This document shows positions 9,393-51,395 of a stretch of DNA of 64,000 bases, piece by piece (the first letter of the stretch is position 1; each line of letters opens with the position of its first letter). Source of the stretch: Verrucomicrobiota bacterium (GTDB lineage: Bacteria > Verrucomicrobiota > Verrucomicrobiia > Limisphaerales > Palsa-1400); assembly GCA_049510745.1 (NCBI GenBank), contig JBEKYR010000005.1, forward strand, positions 64,001 to 128,000. Direction: 5' to 3'. A program made the translations under genes and the position numbers. The notes under the pieces were generated by a model. It was given only the letters and a program-made list of their open reading frames with translations. It was not told the DNA's origin and searched no databases.

Positions 9393-9877
9393 GGCTCGAG
9401 GTACCCTTCCAGGGTTTCGCCTGATTTGGTGTTTTCCAACTTCCAGCCGCCGTCCGGCTTCCGGGAAAAATGCAAATCGTCCGGCAGGGATTCGCCAGCC
9501 AAAGCCGCGCGCAGGCAGAGCCAGAGAAAGCGGGGCGGAGGATTGCCTTTTCCGGCAAAACTCATTTGCCTGGGTGGAAACTCAACGAGCCAATGGGTTG
9601 AGCTGGTTTGCGCCAGCACGAGCGGAATCGGCGTTTTGACAAACTCAACCGAGCATCGCCCGTCCGGATGACTGGCCACAACCACTTCGCCGCCAAGTTC
9701 CGGATAATTGCGGCCCGGACGCCAAAGGGCCTGTCCTTGCTGCACGTGCCAACCCGGACCGGAAGCGGTGAACAACGAATCGTTTGCCGCCGTCCGACAA
9801 CCGGTCGAAAGAGAACTGCCTGCCAGCAGCGACAGCCCAACCCCAAAGCACAACCATCGGTGTTCGCATGAACCCAT
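9389..9877 (-). CDS. Hypothetical lipoprotein
   Basis: Lipobox-like STGC; stop overlaps the MMPL start codon. Confidence 0.65.
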   Translation of the reverse strand: MGSCEHRWLCFGVGLSLLAGSSLSTGCRTAANDSLFTASGPGWHVQQGQALWRPGRNYPELGGEVVVASHPDGRCSVEFVKTPIPLVLAQTSSTHWLVEFPPRQMSFAGKGNPPPRFLWLCLRAALAGESLPDDLHFSRKPDGGWKLENTKSGETLEGYLEP

Positions 9878-10246
9878 AAACTGCGCTCATTGTTGGGGCG
9901 GCATCCCGATTGTCAAAACTTTCATTTTGCCCTTGTTGAACGCGCATCGGGGTCATGAGCGTAACGGTGGGGGTTGGACATTGGCTGTCCCAGTCCAAAA
10001 GAACTGGGAGGATTCGGGAGATCGCCGGGATCCTTGGGTTCACATCAGCCCCGCCAAAAAAACACCCCGCCGTAATGCCGTGTATCAACAGTTCCGTTGA
10101 ACAAACTTAGGACAGGGAGAGCCGAATCGATCGCTTTCGACTTCCAATCAAGGTTTGTCGGCCACAACCGACGTTAAGGCTCTTTATGGACTAATTTCCG
10201 GTTCAAGGATCAGGTTGATAATCACGAACATGGCAGGGTAAAGGCT

Positions 10247-43031: not shown

Positions 43032-43241
43032 CGCCTTTTTGGGAGCGCAATCGTCTCAAAAAATGACTCCAAAAACACTTCGCACTCCCGCATGAAATGT
43101 CATACTGTCATATGACAGTATGGATTGTTGGGCGTGCTCGAATCCTTGGCGACTTTGTGGGAGTGCGGCCATGCGATTGTCTCTAAAAATTACTTGGCGC
43201 TCCCGCATGCAATGTCATCCTGTCATATGACAGTATTCATT
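43021..43241. repeat. Dispersed repeat, copies 2 and 3 in tandem (118-119-bp period)
   Basis: Units start CGAATCC at 43021 and 43139; perfect 22-bp palindrome CATACTGTCATATGACAGTATG 43101-43122; 14-bp core again at 43220-43233. Confidence 0.85.
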
Positions 43242-46385: not shown

Positions 46386-46424
46386 TAATGCGGGGAATGG
46401 CGGGAGTGGCGGGGCTCGAACCCG
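46386..46424. repeat. att site distal to the tRNA (39-bp direct repeat)
   Basis: TAATGCGGGGAATGGCGGGAGTGGCGGGGCTCGAACCCG, identical to 51307-51345. Confidence 0.95.
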
Positions 46425-46439
46425 CTACGAATCATTGCA

Positions 46440-46484
46440 AATCAAGGACTTAGGTGGGCTGCCATCACAAGGAGCCTCACAAAT
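46440..46484 (+). promoter_or_regulatory. IHF-consensus site and putative integrase arm-type sites
   Basis: AATCAAGGACTTA matches WATCAAN4TTR; GAGCCTCACAAAT 46472-46484 recurs at 51159-51171. Confidence 0.6.
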
Positions 46485-46607
46485 CTCTGGCGTGTTGGGG
46501 CAGGACCTGTCACGCGTAGTCACTGCATGGGCTGATCTTCCTCCGCCTCTCAAGGCTGCAATCCTCGCCATTATCGAGGCCGCCGGGAAATAGGAAAGCG
46601 GCTACCT

Positions 46608-47546
46608 GTGGACACGCAAGCCAGTGGGGGCACGGAAGGGCCGGGGGCGGAGCGGCGCGAAGCGCCGCCCGCACCCGGCCTTCCTTGTCTAAATAGTAAC
46701 AATTCAGACAACGCGGAAGCGAGTCCGTGGAATCTCCTGACGGGTTCGCATCGCAAGGTGGCCTTCTGTCTGCAAGGAGAAATTCTCGCTTTGGTTGAGG
46801 ACTTCGGTATTGAGCATCTTGGATTTTTAACCCTCACTTTTGCTGATCATGTCGTTGACATCAGGGAAGCGTCTCGGCGGTTTAACAATCTCAACCGGCG
46901 CGTATTGAAGGCCCGTTACAAGCGCCTGGTGGCGGTGCCAGAGCGGACGAAGATTCAGAGGCTGCATTTCCACTGCCTGTGCGTGTTAGACGTTGATATC
47001 CGCACTGGCTGCGATTTTGAGGCTTTCAAGAAAGGGGATTACCGGTCGGCATCGGCGGTTCTTAAGTCCGAGTGGAAGTTTTGGCGCGAGACTGCGCCCA
47101 AGTATGGCTTCGGTCGGACTGAGTTGCTGCCGGTTAAGTCAACCGCCGAGGGCATCTCGAAATACGTTGGGAAATACATCGCCAAGCACATCGACTGCCG
47201 GGTCGAAAAGGACAAAGGCGCGAGGTTGGTTCGCTACATCGGTTATCGCCCTGGGGAGCGGTCGTTCCACCCACACATGATGTTCAATTCGGAGCATGCC
47301 TGGCTGTGGCGGCAGAAGGTAGAAAAGTTCACCCGCCAAAATCGCATTTTTGACATGGAGCATTTCACGAAGATTTGCGGGCCTCGTTGGTGCTACTTTT
47401 TTCAAGACGCGATTCTTCACACGGATTTGCCTCCTGGCACGGTGTTTCCGTCGTTGGCTCTGGGGTTGGACGAGTCGGAGCGCAAGAGCGCCAGGGAGTG
47501 TTTGCTTTTGAAAGTTCGTCTTTGCAAAGACATCGACAAGCTGTGA
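46608..47546 (+). CDS. Rolling-circle replication initiator (HUH endonuclease, two-Tyr type)
   Basis: Motif I FLTLTF, motif II LHFHCL, motif III YVGKYIAK; start codon uncertain. Confidence 0.88.
   Translation: MDTQASGGTEGPGAERREAPPAPGLPCLNSNNSDNAEASPWNLLTGSHRKVAFCLQGEILALVEDFGIEHLGFLTLTFADHVVDIREASRRFNNLNRRVLKARYKRLVAVPERTKIQRLHFHCLCVLDVDIRTGCDFEAFKKGDYRSASAVLKSEWKFWRETAPKYGFGRTELLPVKSTAEGISKYVGKYIAKHIDCRVEKDKGARLVRYIGYRPGERSFHPHMMFNSEHAWLWRQKVEKFTRQNRIFDMEHFTKICGPRWCYFFQDAILHTDLPPGTVFPSLALGLDESERKSARECLLLKVRLCKDIDKL
46634..46705 (+). other. Candidate double-strand replication origin (GC hairpin plus AT-rich tract)
   Basis: Stem GGAAGGGCCGGGGGCGGAGCGGCGC-GAA-GCGCCGCCCGCACCCGGCCTTCC followed by TTGTCTAAATAGTAACAATTC. 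Confidence 0.6.
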
Positions 47547-47748: not shown

Positions 47749-48594
47749 ATGACAATCGTTGTTGGACTAATAGGCAAGGAATCAATCGTTTTAGCGAGTG
47801 ACAGCCAGTCAACCTATGGAGTGGCAAAGTTACTGAACGCAAGAAAAATAGGCGTCGTCGCATTTGAAAATGGAACGGCACTTGTTGCACAAGCTGGCGC
47901 GGCGTATCCGGCGTCTCGCGCAGTGCAACTTTTTGAACGGAAGGCAAAAAGCCTTCGCGTTACTGATTCCGAATCGTTTATTAAGGCCGCTCGTGACTCT
48001 GTATTAGAAGTGAAACATTGCCTAATTGAAGGACAAGGGGGAGCAGCGTTTTCAGAAGATAGACGGGAGCAATTTTTTAGATGTGACTACTACTTTAAAT
48101 TGATGGTCGCTTACTATCTTAACGACCAGCCTTTCATTTTCACGATTGATAGTTATGACTGTCTGCCGGTCCATCTGAAATCGGATTATGTGGCAATGGG
48201 ATGCGGTGACACTTTAGCGTATTACCTTTTAAGCGAGATTGTGGAACTAGGGATGCCATTTACGAACTGCATGGCGCGTGCAATCTACGTTGTGGAAAAG
48301 GTCAAACAAAACGTTGAGGGATGCGGGGGATCGACATGCGTTGGAGTTGTTCATAACGTCCCTGATTCGGATGATGATTATACCGCGAAAGTCCGCCGTT
48401 CAAAAGGATTGACATTACCGTATAGCAGTGCTCGTGTTCTTGATCAAAATAGAATCAGCGATATTGCAAGGAGACTTACAGACGTTGATTTTAAATGCAG
48501 GAAAGATAGAAACAAGCAAATTATAGCGATGATTCAAGGTGTGGAGGCTGATTATCAGAACGAATGGGACGAATCGCCGGAGGAAGTACAATGA
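47749..48594 (+). CDS. Proteasome-beta/HslV-fold Ntn-hydrolase-like protein (element cargo)
   Basis: M-T1-IVVG...VLASDSQ...RKI; later VAMGCG and GCGG at the positions of the GSG and SGG motifs. Confidence 0.75.
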   Translation: MTIVVGLIGKESIVLASDSQSTYGVAKLLNARKIGVVAFENGTALVAQAGAAYPASRAVQLFERKAKSLRVTDSESFIKAARDSVLEVKHCLIEGQGGAAFSEDRREQFFRCDYYFKLMVAYYLNDQPFIFTIDSYDCLPVHLKSDYVAMGCGDTLAYYLLSEIVELGMPFTNCMARAIYVVEKVKQNVEGCGGSTCVGVVHNVPDSDDDYTAKVRRSKGLTLPYSSARVLDQNRISDIARRLTDVDFKCRKDRNKQIIAMIQGVEADYQNEWDESPEEVQ

Positions 48595-48713: not shown

Positions 48714-49154
48714 TTACTTGAGGTTTTGCCACCGGACCAATATTCCATCGCTGAAATAGAGGAAAATGTCCGGTTCGGCAGTTTCGAGAGTGACAGGGTC
48801 GGGATCTAAATATGACCATAAATCAAATGAACCGCCAATTCCTTGACTTGTTTCAATATGCCACGGGCGGCCCATGACCACGCGGACTTGCTCTTCGTCC
48901 ATACCGATTGAAATCCGTCCGTTCTTGAAGTTGTCCAGCAATCTGGGGTCGGCATTTGGATGTGCTTCCATGTATGCTCGCGCTCTCTCGGAAATTGCAG
49001 ACGGGAGACGTTGGTCGAGTTCGTCGAGCGTAAATTGCGCTGCGGATTTATAGTGCTCTGTGGCCGTGTCGGCAGGGGGTTGTCCATATTGAGGGGGGAT
49101 GGGAGACCCACATCCCGCGATTGCGACAAGAATGACTGACAGAACGATTCTCAT
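48714..49154 (-). CDS. Lipoprotein with SmpA/OmlA(BamE)-like C-terminal domain
   Basis: IAGC lipobox; ISIGMDEEQVRVVMGRP...W.Y...LYFSDGILV. Confidence 0.75.
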   Translation of the reverse strand: MRIVLSVILVAIAGCGSPIPPQYGQPPADTATEHYKSAAQFTLDELDQRLPSAISERARAYMEAHPNADPRLLDNFKNGRISIGMDEEQVRVVMGRPWHIETSQGIGGSFDLWSYLDPDPVTLETAEPDIFLYFSDGILVRWQNLK

Positions 49155-49478
49155 TGTTTGGATAGTATCACGCCCGATAGCTGTCCGTCAATAATGTGAG
49201 AATGCGCCTGGTGGTGACGGCATTGGCCGCAGTGTTGCGGTGGCAGAAAGGGCGCAATCCTGGGGACAAGGACGACACGACCAGGCACTTGTCGGGGCGG
49301 AGCGTTCGCGTGTTGGCATTTGGCTTGGCCTTTGTGTTCGCAGCAAGCCGGATGCCAACACGGGAACGCGCAGCGGGGAAATGCTCATGGTTTCTAATGT
49401 GATAATGATTGCAATTAGAATTACTAAAAACGTTTTTATTTGATTGCTATGTTCGTTTTGTTCGTTTAGTTTGATGCC

Positions 49479-49877
49479 ATGAAAAGAAAACGAACAGGCG
49501 CGAAAGTGATAGCCGGGAAGGCAACGCAAAAGGCCCCCGTGCGAGCGGAACAAAAATCAGAGAACCAATGGCCGCCCGGGCATCTCACAGAATCCTCGGA
49601 TGGGGTGCTGAGAATCCGTCCGTTTCCAGAGAGCCTTCTGCACGAAGCCGAACGAGAGCCTGATCATGTGGACTTGGCGGAATACTGGCGGGTGATTTTT
49701 AAGCTGCGCGAAAAGGGCTTCACGTTTCGTGATATTGCACTGTGGCTTTCGGAGCGCAACGTTGAGGCGGACCACAACGCCGTTTATCGGGTGTACTCCA
49801 ATCATATGACCGCCGAGCAGACTGCAATAGAATCGGACCTGGAAGAACGGGAAAAGCAAATGATCGAGGAGTTGTGA
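49479..49877 (+). CDS. Putative HTH DNA-binding protein
   Basis: LREKGFTFRDIALWLSERNVEADHNAVYRVY; first gene of a tight HTH-xis-int run. Confidence 0.65.
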   Translation: MKRKRTGAKVIAGKATQKAPVRAEQKSENQWPPGHLTESSDGVLRIRPFPESLLHEAEREPDHVDLAEYWRVIFKLREKGFTFRDIALWLSERNVEADHNAVYRVYSNHMTAEQTAIESDLEEREKQMIEEL

Positions 49878-49878
49878 T

Positions 49879-50100
49879 ATGTCTGACGTTGTCGAAAGGG
49901 CGAGCGAGGGCAATGCGGAATCGAAACTGGTGCGGCTGAAAGGGGCGGCGGCTCGGCTTGGTGTCAGTGTGCGGACATTGTACCGCATCATTGCGGAAGG
50001 GGGCTTGCCCTTGGTGCATATTCGAGGGTGTTCGTGTTTGAAAGAAGGCGACTTGAGCGCTTACGTGGAAAAAAGCAAACGAAGGAAAATTTATGATTAA
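49879..50100 (+). CDS. Excisionase-like (HTH_17/AlpA-type) protein
   Basis: AAARLGVSVRTLYRIIAEGGLP; overlaps the integrase start. Confidence 0.85.
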   Translation: MSDVVERASEGNAESKLVRLKGAAARLGVSVRTLYRIIAEGGLPLVHIRGCSCLKEGDLSAYVEKSKRRKIYD

Positions 50101-51376
50101 CAGCATTTACAAACCCAAGGGGTCGCGGATATGGCGCTGGAGATTCCGGCAGGTCCCTGCCGATGGCAAAATTGAAGATGTATCGCTTGGGACATCTGAG
50201 AAACAGGTGGCGGAAAAACGGCAGGGTGAGCGGCGGCGAGAAAAGGAGCTTGAAAGAGGGGGGTTCATTCCTCCAAAGGCTATACGTGATGCGTCACACC
50301 GCAAGCTGTCGGACCATTTGCAAGACTTCCTGGGCGATATGCGCCGGCGGGGGAAGTCGGAAAAGTATCTGGCAAACCTTGAATTCCGTGTTGGCAGACT
50401 GATTTCGGATTGCGCTTGGAACACAGCAAGCGACGTTTCGGCTGATTCATTCCAAGCCTGGTTGCGTAGGCGACAGGAATTGAAGGACAAGACGGCGAAT
50501 GATTATTTAGAAGCTGCGCGGTGTTTTTTTAACTGGCTGGTGAAACTCGGTCGGGCGGGGTCTAATCCTCTGCTGTCGGTGGAAAAGGCAAAAACGAAAG
50601 GCGGCAAAGCACAGGGGCGCCGGGCGTTTAGTGATGACGAAATGGTGCGTTTGCTGGCTGTTGCTGGCGAGCGCAAGGCGGTTTACCTGATGGCGGTCCA
50701 TACGGGCTTGCGGAGAGGGGAATTGGCGGCGCTCAAGTGGGGAGACTTGCATCTGGATGCGGTGACACCGTTTGTCAACGTCCGGGCATCGACAACTAAG
50801 AACGGCAAGGCTGCGGATATGCGATTGCTTCCTGAATTGGTGGCAGCACTGGCTGAACTTAAAACCAACGGGACAAATGGCGATGACCTTGTTTTCAAGC
50901 GGATTCCCCGGATTGAGAGGTTTTACAGGGACTTGAAAAAAGCCGGGATTGCGCTCAAGGACGCATTTGGACGCAAGGCCGTCTTTCATTCCCTGCGGCA
51001 TACATTCGGGACTAATCTGGCGCGGGGTGGAGTGGCAAGCCGGGTTGCAATGGCTCTGATGCGGCACAGTGACCGAAGATTGACGGATCAGATTTACACT
51101 GATGAAAACCTGCTCGGCACCTGGGCGGCGTTCGACAGTCTGCCCAATTATGGGGAGCGAGCCTCACAAATAGCCTCACAGATTTTAGTCGCAACGGGTC
51201 AAAACGTGTCATTGCCTGTCACAACGAGTGCCGGGCCGGAAGTGGCAAAAACCCTTGTAAACATTGGCGATTGTCACGTTTTGGCACTGCCTGGCACAAC
51301 GGGTCATAATGCGGGGAATGGCGGGAGTGGCGGGGCTCGAACCCGTAACCTCTGCCGTGACAGGGCAGCGCTCTAA
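50093..51376 (+). CDS. Tyrosine recombinase/integrase; frame runs through att and stops inside tRNA-Asp (antisense)
   Basis: TGLRRGE, TKNG, FHSLRHT, MRHSD, QIYT catalytic set complete. Confidence 0.95.
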   Translation: MINSIYKPKGSRIWRWRFRQVPADGKIEDVSLGTSEKQVAEKRQGERRREKELERGGFIPPKAIRDASHRKLSDHLQDFLGDMRRRGKSEKYLANLEFRVGRLISDCAWNTASDVSADSFQAWLRRRQELKDKTANDYLEAARCFFNWLVKLGRAGSNPLLSVEKAKTKGGKAQGRRAFSDDEMVRLLAVAGERKAVYLMAVHTGLRRGELAALKWGDLHLDAVTPFVNVRASTTKNGKAADMRLLPELVAALAELKTNGTNGDDLVFKRIPRIERFYRDLKKAGIALKDAFGRKAVFHSLRHTFGTNLARGGVASRVAMALMRHSDRRLTDQIYTDENLLGTWAAFDSLPNYGERASQIASQILVATGQNVSLPVTTSAGPEVAKTLVNIGDCHVLALPGTTGHNAGNGGSGGARTRNLCRDRAAL

Positions 51377-51395
51377 CCAATTGAGCTACACCCCC
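51319..51395 (-). tRNA. tRNA-Asp (GTC), integration target
   Basis: GGGGGTGTAGCTCAATTGGTTAGAGC...CTGCC-CTGTCAC-GGCAG...GGTTCGAGCC...CACTCCC-G-CCA. Confidence 0.96.

What the first reader, a model, noticed from the sequence alone, without database searches (positions are those of the whole stretch)
46423..46593. Recombination-switched integrase C-terminus: att lies inside the int reading frame
Seen: int (50093) has no stop before att and ends in the antisense tRNA as ...ARTR-NLCRDRAAL (427 aa). Joining the repeats as in the excised circle keeps the frame open for 55 more codons: ...ARTR-YESLQIKDLGGLPSQGASQISGVLGQDLSRVVTAWADLPPPLKAAILAIIEAAGK, stop 46591-46593 (473 aa). In the integrated state this segment has no ATG and an in-frame stop just upstream (46354). 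Its end looks like an amphipathic two-helix unit; I recall similar DLxxVVxAWxxLPxxxxAAILA peptides as orphan ORFs beside integrases in PVC genomes (unverified). Established analogies: attP inside the repressor gene of mycobacteriophage BPs, and SSV1-type split integrases. Inference: integration state sets which integrase isoform is made, controlling directionality, stability or oligomerisation, with the catalytic domain intact in both.
Basis: partly seen in the sequence, partly recalled or inferred. Interest (0 to 1): 0.9.

Follow-up and report, generated by a model that had tools for sequence, protein, structure and literature searches.

The report
Integrase that loses tail on insertion
A small mobile element's insertion enzyme has its gene running across its own insertion site, so inserting into a tRNA gene cuts off a conserved two-helix end that only the free circle can encode; this switch is known from one phage but here is the rule in a large family, and it explains thousands of orphan 'hypothetical proteins'.

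Summary
Observation confirmed. A 4,921-bp element sits in the 3' end of tRNA-Asp between 39-nt repeats. Its tyrosine integrase reads through the right repeat (427 aa); the computed circle gives 473 aa.

The tail is real coding sequence of the circle form. In integrase-selected relatives the frame stays open for 46 or more codons past att in 25 of 26 elements, against 1 of 52 for the other frames. Held-out tails are in frame with their own integrase in 16 of 16 and 17 of 19 pairs, across many tRNAs, all three att phases and both orientations. The helices show dN/dS about 0.21 and have no conserved start. Three integrases that stop before att lack the tail.

The W-x-x-L hairpin (6,874 clusters) matched no family or paper I searched. 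Its function is inferred, not shown: probably it makes the circle form the active integrator. This scan has noted the same layout before on other DNA, mostly serine integrases.

The parts
46386..46424 (+). Left copy of the att core (displaced 3' end of tRNA-Asp, antisense, plus 12 nt beyond the tRNA end)
   Evidence: 39-nt exact repeat with 51307-51345
46426..46593 (+). Detached 3' end of the integrase gene: 55 codons, in frame with int only in the circle
   Evidence: in-frame in relatives
46461..46482 (+). Tandem direct repeat, putative arm-type integrase binding site, written over the first part of the tail
   Evidence: shared with 51160-51182; this part has dN/dS 0.94 and lowered synonymous divergence; function inferred
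46504..46581 (+). Conserved two-helix hairpin with invariant W (46528) and L
   Evidence: W and L invariant in 22 tails; dN/dS 0.21; two helices at pLDDT about 93 in a natural fused relative
46608..47546 (+). Rolling-circle replication initiator, starting 15 nt after the tail stop
   Evidence: Pfam REP_ORF2-G2P E 9e-9; PHROG 3419
47749..48594 (+). Cargo: proteasome-beta/HslV-like Ntn hydrolase
   Evidence: Pfam Proteasome E 1.4e-6; PHROG 1040
48714..49154 (-). Cargo: lipoprotein-like ORF, weak BamE-like match
   Evidence: Pfam BamE E 0.0075, under the cut-off
49479..49877 (+). 132-aa ORF upstream of xis, possible regulator
   Evidence: no family over cut-off; homologues in 3 other elements of 29 examined
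49879..50100 (+). Excisionase-like helix-turn-helix gene overlapping the int start
   Evidence: Pfam HTH_17 E 5.4e-6; excisionase role inferred
50093..51376 (+). Tyrosine integrase, integrated form (427 aa); catalytic R207, K236, H299, R302, H325, Y335
   Evidence: Pfam Phage_integrase E 3.5e-20; motif positions
51152..51306 (+). Linker: attP arm DNA (tandem repeat at 51160-51182) kept stop-free in the int frame
   Evidence: dN/dS 0.80, pS 0.28 against 0.56 in the catalytic domain; disordered in the model of a relative
51307..51345 (+). Right copy of the att core, inside the int reading frame (residues 405-418)
51319..51395 (-). tRNA-Asp(GTC), the integration target; its antisense supplies the last 9 residues of the integrated form

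Best explanation
This is an Mx8-type self-modifying tyrosine integrase on a small rolling-circle integrative element. SHOWN from sequence and comparative data: attP lies inside int. The free circle encodes arm, core-binding and catalytic domains, then about 90 residues of unstructured read-through over the attP arms and core, then a conserved two-helix W-x-x-L hairpin. Integration swaps the hairpin for a few residues of antisense tRNA and strands its coding sequence, startless, at the far end of the element. INFERRED: the hairpin is a protein-contact module, most likely for integrase self-association. It makes the circle-encoded enzyme the efficient integrator, while the tail-less chromosomal form is weaker and needs the adjacent Xis to excise. 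The element thus switches its own recombinase down once inserted and back up once excised. Also inferred: circularisation places rep directly behind xis-int-tail, so the same joint could switch on replication.
For: Integrase-selected set: 32 loci with a repeat, 3 dropped because the repeat was not att (L053, L063, L073). Of the other 29, 26 read through att. Their own frame stays open for 46 or more codons in 25 of 26, against 1 of 52 in the other two frames; 23 of 26 carry the W-x-x-L helices in the int frame and none in another frame. The 3 that stop before att have no tail in any frame. Held-out tails: 16 of 16 pairs in frame and open (G235 rechecked at the att core) and 17 of 19. Two tandem elements in one tRNA-Asn with the same att core use different phases, and each tail follows its own integrase. 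The layout holds with att reversed and with a 5'-half tRNA-Leu repeat. Helices dN/dS 0.21, variable columns 15/7/22 of 24 at codon positions 1/2/3. Natural fused proteins exist (P0014, P0020 with Pfam integrase domain; P0006). Model: catalytic domain, disordered linker, confident hairpin. Precedent: in Mx8 integration replaces 112 C-terminal residues by 13 and the product is less active (PMC4701971, passage).
Against: No activity, expression or binding data. No sequence link to Mx8 Int beyond a weak N-terminal match (E 0.004), and its tail lacks the motif, so the function is carried over by analogy. 9 of 52 related integrases end early (one, L068, is an artefact of my position estimate), so the tail is dispensable in some lineages. 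3 of 26 read-through elements have a variant or shortened tail without W (L056, L067, L068). 2 of 19 pairs fail (L171 broken by an inserted repeat, L233 one frameshift). Relatives are not independent, and the dN/dS values are pooled pairwise counts over 7 elements of one clade. A rep homologue behind the tail was detected in only 6 of 29 elements.
Confidence: 0.65

Rival explanations
1. The tail is a real part of the circle-form integrase but acts on its half-life, not its activity: a degradation signal (as for the BPs repressor) or a cap that protects the long disordered C-terminus.
For: BPs precedent: the long, attP-spanning form carries an ssrA-like tag and is degraded (PMC4557955, abstract). 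Both forms here end in a long disordered region.
Against: Conservation is in an internal helical pattern followed by ends of variable length and sequence, not at the extreme C-terminus as terminal tags require (own knowledge). The integrated ends differ with each tRNA and phase.
Confidence: 0.15
2. The fused tail binds a partner other than integrase (the element's Xis, Rep or a host factor) and so ties integration to the circle or its replication.
For: Hydrophobic hairpin on a long tether; xis directly upstream and rep directly downstream in the circle.
Against: The tail is kept in elements where no homologue of this rep or xis is detectable, though these may be too diverged to see.
Confidence: 0.1
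3. The tail is a small stand-alone gene translated from the integrated element, acting in trans as a directionality factor or inhibitor; the fusion is incidental.
For: Gene callers list it as an orphan ORF. In most elements of one att phase an ATG, GTG or TTG from the antisense tRNA end lies in frame 5-12 codons upstream of the tail. A few proteins carry 2-4 tandem copies of the hairpin without an integrase.
Against: In this window no start has a usable Shine-Dalgarno site (nearest 17 nt away). L075 and L087 have no ATG, GTG or TTG at all. The tail's phase relative to the att core changes in step with the integrase frame, which a stand-alone gene would not require.
Confidence: 0.08
4. The open frame is a by-product: the region is conserved as DNA (arm sites at fixed spacing) and the peptide is meaningless.
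For: Linker and first half of the tail do behave as DNA-constrained (dN/dS 0.8-0.94), and the arm-to-arm distance is a multiple of 3 in 22 of 24 measurable cases.
Against: The helices vary freely at third positions (22 of 24 columns). The frame is kept where the arm distance is not a multiple of 3 (L038, 221; L046, 214). The integrase frame alone is depleted of stops over the linker (43 of 52, against 12 and 5).
Confidence: 0.02

Closest known systems
Myxococcus phage Mx8 integrase IntP/IntX (and Mx9)
   Same: Tyrosine integrase with attP inside its gene, downstream of the catalytic domain; integration replaces a long C-terminus with a short one (112 by 13 residues; PMC4701971 passage; PMC6070905 passage). 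The Mx8 protein shows the same order of catalytic end, linker, tRNA-derived core and tail, with an excisionase gene just upstream.
   Different: No detectable homology beyond a weak N-terminal match; the Mx8 tail has no W-x-x-L hairpin. Here the carriers are mostly 3-9 kb elements, not 50-kb phages, and the layout spans many tRNA and tmRNA targets, three att phases and both orientations.
Archaeal suicidal (SSV1, pTN3, pT26-2) integrases
   Same: att site inside the integrase gene (PMC8371274, passages).
   Different: There the gene is split into Int(N) and a catalytic Int(C), both described as inactive; here arm, core-binding and catalytic domains stay in one frame and only a tail is lost.
Mycobacteriophage BPs integration-dependent immunity
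   Same: Integration removes a C-terminal segment of a protein whose gene spans attP (PMC4557955, abstract).
   Different: The protein is the repressor and the lost part is an ssrA-like degron; here it is the integrase and a folded hairpin.
rumA-targeting serine integrases of streptococcal ICEs
   Same: att inside the integrase gene, so the C-terminus differs between integrated and excised forms (PMC4701971, passage).
   Different: Serine recombinases, protein-coding target, no conserved tail described in the passages read.

Membership tests
Tyrosine recombinases (phage integrase family) | Catalytic domain with R-K-H-R-H/W-Y | tested here: met
   PF00589 E 3.5e-20, over cut-off; R207, K236, H299, R302, H325, Y335; the model of relative P0020 matches Xer, lambda Int and Cre folds
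tRNA-targeting integrative element | Direct repeat of the tRNA end at both borders; intact tRNA in the occupied and the empty site | tested here: met
tRNA-targeting integrative element | Excision to a circle in vivo | tested here: inconclusive
   Contigs of 4 runs break at the repeat, no joint listed; att-spanning fused proteins exist for relatives
Mx8-type self-modifying integrase (layout) | attP inside int, downstream of an intact catalytic domain; C-terminus replaced on integration | tested here: met
Mx8-type self-modifying integrase (layout) | Integrated form less active than the free form | not testable with these tools
   needs recombination assays
Mx8 Int sequence family | Homology to Mx8 IntP, including its tail | tested here: not met
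   Pairwise BLASTP best E 0.004 over 55 N-terminal residues only; no W-x-x-L hairpin in the Mx8 tail; the window's tail finds nothing in 50,697 phage records. A profile comparison was not run, so remote kinship is not excluded.
SSV-type suicidal integrases | Integration separates Int(N) from the catalytic Int(C) | tested here: not met
   All catalytic residues lie upstream of att, which starts at residue 405
BPs-type integration-dependent immunity | attP inside a repressor gene | tested here: not met
   The interrupted frame is the integrase
BPs-type integration-dependent immunity | Removed tail is a degron | not testable with these tools
   No conserved terminal tag in 22 tails; half-life needs experiment

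The most novel reading that the evidence does not exclude
The W-x-x-L hairpin is an undescribed, covalently attached directionality module: an oligomerisation domain that exists only on circle-encoded integrase and is needed for integration. The attP DNA is dual-coded (arm sites and reading frame, arm spacing clustering at 222, 243 and 264 bp, steps of 21 that keep both helical phase and frame). The reading phase of the att core then works as a compatibility code that decides whether a newcomer in a tandem array hands its tail to the resident integrase, and circularisation also joins xis-int to rep.
Probability: 0.25. Interest if true: 0.8.

Novelty: new variant of a known kind. Interest (0 to 1): 0.6.

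Why it matters
Papers read here treat att-inside-int as rare in bacteria (PMC4701971: 'very few integrative elements'; PMC8371274 calls self-disrupting integrases exclusively archaeal). Here it is the norm for a family found in 40 of 401 sampled genomes of this phylum, with a conserved detachable module. It explains a large orphan family: the tail profile hits 6,874 protein clusters at 50% identity and no Pfam, NCBIfam or PHROG family. Every integrase of this family annotated from a chromosome is the clipped form, so mining such integrases as genome-engineering tools may test the wrong protein (inference). The element is small and gives a clean two-form test of how a tyrosine integrase can control its own direction.

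Tried and rejected
Homodimer prediction of the tail: no verdict (0.28, mark 0.42), no evidence either way. Fold searches with a four-repeat hairpin protein gave only generic helices; the tail was not folded and searched alone. PDB sequence search and Pfam gave only weak, partial HMG-box and armadillo matches, not accepted. The ESM Atlas could not be searched, and cluster membership could not be looked up, so the four-repeat proteins have no known source. No RNA holder listed. Contigs of four DNA runs break at the repeat and list no circle joint; element depth is like the flanks; uninformative on excision. No close integrase in viral contigs, cultured phages or plasmids (best 30% identity or less). 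A promoter-like site at 51281-51310 is within chance (6 found, 3.7 expected). Independent starts at TTG 46435 and GTG 46492 rejected. The primary Mx8 paper is not held; Mx8 facts come from passages of two other papers. Nine literature searches showed no title or abstract on this tail or family; subscription journals are mostly absent from the library, and no supplements were opened. A tyrosine-recombinase classification paper (PMC8138268) has no mention of these phyla or Mx8 in its main text.

Full report
OBSERVATION. The window holds an exact 39-nt direct repeat at 46386-46424 and 51307-51345, bounding 4,921 bp. The right copy overlaps the 3' 27 nt of tRNA-Asp(GTC) on the minus strand. The element is lower in G+C (0.52) than its flanks (0.61 and 0.68). 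It carries, left to right: the 55-codon segment in question, a rolling-circle Rep, an Ntn-hydrolase, a lipoprotein-like ORF, a 132-aa ORF, an HTH_17 excisionase-like gene and a tyrosine integrase. All six catalytic residues lie before residue 336; the repeat encodes residues 405-418. Integrated, the frame ends 9 residues later in antisense tRNA (427 aa). In the computed circle it runs 55 residues further (473 aa). The host is inferred to be a verrucomicrobium, from the labels of the nearest tail-bearing records.

IS THE TAIL REAL? Test 1, selected on the integrase only. The integrase has relatives at E 1e-30 or better in 40 of 401 genomes sampled from the phylum; I fetched 40 regions for them and 65 metagenome loci. 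A repeat was found in 32 loci. I dropped three where it was not att: L053 (897-bp partial duplication), L063 (repeat in the linker) and L073 (inserted repeat, truncated). The 29 left include L071, identical to the window, and L099, a near-copy of L096. In 26 the integrase reads through att. After rebuilding attP, its frame stays open for 46 or more codons in 25 of 26, against 1 of 52 for the other two frames. The W-x-x-L helix pair is in the integrase frame in 23 of 26 and in no other frame; W and L are invariant in the 22 aligned. L056, L067 and L068 have a variant or short tail. The three integrases that stop before att (L041, L054, L061) have no tail in any frame. Over the linker, 43 of 52 integrases are stop-free for 50 codons in their own frame, against 12 and 5 in the other frames. 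Seven of the nine early stoppers fall in one well-supported clade that also holds read-through members; one of the nine, L068, is an artefact of my position estimate.

Test 2, held-out tails. A profile of the 22 tails hit 39 of the same 401 genomes. For hits not used to build it, 28 tails were scored: 16 could be paired with an integrase through a shared repeat, 2 were junctions in place and 10 had no partner in the DNA fetched. All 16 are in frame and open; for G235 the script had picked the arm repeat, and reading across the att core gives the same result. Test 3: 82 further tail-selected loci gave 81 tails, 19 paired, 58 without partner in the locus, the rest only at junctions in place. 17 of 19 are in frame and open; L171 is broken by an inserted repeat and L233 is off by one frameshift. 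Chance would give about one in three in frame, though relatives are not independent.

The strongest single observation is that the tail follows the integrase, not the att core. Targets next to these integrases include tRNA-Asp, Ser, Glu, Val, Met, Pro, Leu, Tyr, Gly, Lys, Gln, Arg, Asn and tmRNA, and all three phases of the core are used. In G246 two tandem elements share one att core in tRNA-Asn but read it in different phases; each tail is in frame with its own integrase and the junction between them is out of frame. In L207 and L242 the core is in the sense orientation, and in the Phycisphaerales record L239 it is the 5' part of tRNA-Leu; the tail is still in frame. Natural att-spanning proteins are on record (P0014 and P0020 with a Pfam integrase domain, P0006).

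PROTEIN OR DNA? Among seven tRNA-Asp elements, pooled pairwise dN/dS is 0.09 for the catalytic domain, 0.80 for the linker, 0.94 for the first part of the tail and 0.21 for the helices; the helices vary at 15, 7 and 22 of 24 columns at codon positions 1, 2, 3. Synonymous divergence is halved in the linker (0.28 against 0.56). Linker and first tail part hold matching tandem repeats on both sides of the core, which I read as arm-type sites (inference from lambda-type attP anatomy, own knowledge). So attP is dual-coded: arm DNA that must stay stop-free, followed by a real protein module. AlphaFold2 on the natural fused relative P0020 gives a confident catalytic domain, residues 209-301 under pLDDT 50, and helices 305-314 and 320-333 at about 93. 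An independent start is unlikely here: none has a usable Shine-Dalgarno site, and two close relatives have no ATG, GTG or TTG before the helices. In elements of one att phase a start codon from the antisense tRNA end does lie in frame, which explains why gene callers list the tail as an orphan; translation there is not excluded.

SIZE OF THE FAMILY. The tail profile matches 6,874 clusters (50% identity) at E 0.001 or better. Of the best 150, 111 have an antisense-tRNA-like peptide pattern upstream of the W (loose patterns, no control). A few carry 2-4 tandem hairpins. No Pfam, NCBIfam or PHROG family covers the window's tail.

HOW IT PROBABLY WORKS. Shown: two isoforms set by recombination state, differing by a selected two-helix module on a long tether. 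Inferred: the module is a contact surface, most simply for integrase self-association, that makes the circle-encoded enzyme the efficient integrator; after insertion the clipped enzyme is weaker, which stabilises the element until Xis is made. This rests on the Mx8 precedent and on the hydrophobic pattern, not on a test. A second inferred layer: rep starts 15 nt after the tail stop here, and co-oriented rep homologues follow the tail in 6 of 29 elements, counting the copy of this one, so circularisation would put rep behind xis-int. Of nine junctions found in place, two are in frame and open (G045, G232) and seven are not (G246 and six, several of them decayed or frameshifted), so tandem arrays sometimes give the resident integrase a tail. 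Rivals are a half-life signal (0.15), a partner-binding role (0.10), a stand-alone peptide (0.08) and a by-product of DNA conservation (0.02).

COMPARISON. In myxophage Mx8 attP lies within the tyrosine integrase gene, and integration replaces 112 C-terminal residues by 13, giving a less active enzyme (PMC4701971, passages; PMC6070905, passages; PMC4383910, passages). The Mx8 protein is not detectably homologous beyond its N-terminus and lacks the hairpin. SSV-type integrases lose their catalytic part (PMC8371274, passages) and BPs splits a repressor (PMC4557955, abstract); both fail the membership test. Nine searches of the open library found no description of this family or tail. Earlier notes of this scan report att-spanning integrase genes in many other genomes, mostly serine integrases and one other tyrosine family; these are unchecked AI notes, but they suggest the design is common.

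VERDICT. Real, well supported as coding, and family-wide; the kind of switch is known, the module and its scale appear undescribed, and the function is untested. New variant of a known kind; interest 0.6.

Noticed in passing
window 46461-46482 and 51160-51182; loci L033-L112: Arm-to-arm distance across attP clusters at 222 bp (10 of 24), 243 (6) and 264 (1): steps of 21 bp, which keep both two helical turns and the reading frame. Others are 234 (2), 221, 214, 210, 198 and one spurious 75. Kin are not independent.
   Followed up: partly
P0033, P0103, P0164, P0042: Proteins with 2-4 tandem copies of the hairpin and no integrase; P0033 has four after a lipoprotein-like N-terminus. The model was not informative.
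   Followed up: partly
window 47749-48594: Cargo gene of the proteasome-beta/HslV-like Ntn-hydrolase type with a Thr after the start Met; could be a defence or protease gene. Not detected in 28 other elements.
   Followed up: no
window 49250-49391: Imperfect inverted repeat (48-nt arms) inside the element that attracts very many other contigs in peat metagenomes (depth 130-290 against about 25 in one run): probably a dispersed REP- or MITE-like repeat.
   Followed up: no
L073 11200-11423 and L171 near 9500-10000: A repeated sequence has inserted at or beside the att core and truncates the integrase frame in two relatives.
   Followed up: partly
L041, L054, L061, L042, L066: A sub-clade whose integrases stop before att; in the three with both ends, the left end lacks the tail. 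A natural loss of the switch.
   Followed up: partly
G000 contigs C73, C74, C75: Dense arrays of tRNA genes on three small contigs of the window's genome, possibly from a phage or plasmid.
   Followed up: no
window 43071-43241: Two 56-nt copies, each holding a palindrome, just after a heavy-metal P-type ATPase-like gene; possible regulator binding sites.
   Followed up: no
G000:C20:53357-53905: A partial second integrase of this family near a tRNA (C20:54052-54125) in the same genome, with no second tail match in the genome.
   Followed up: no
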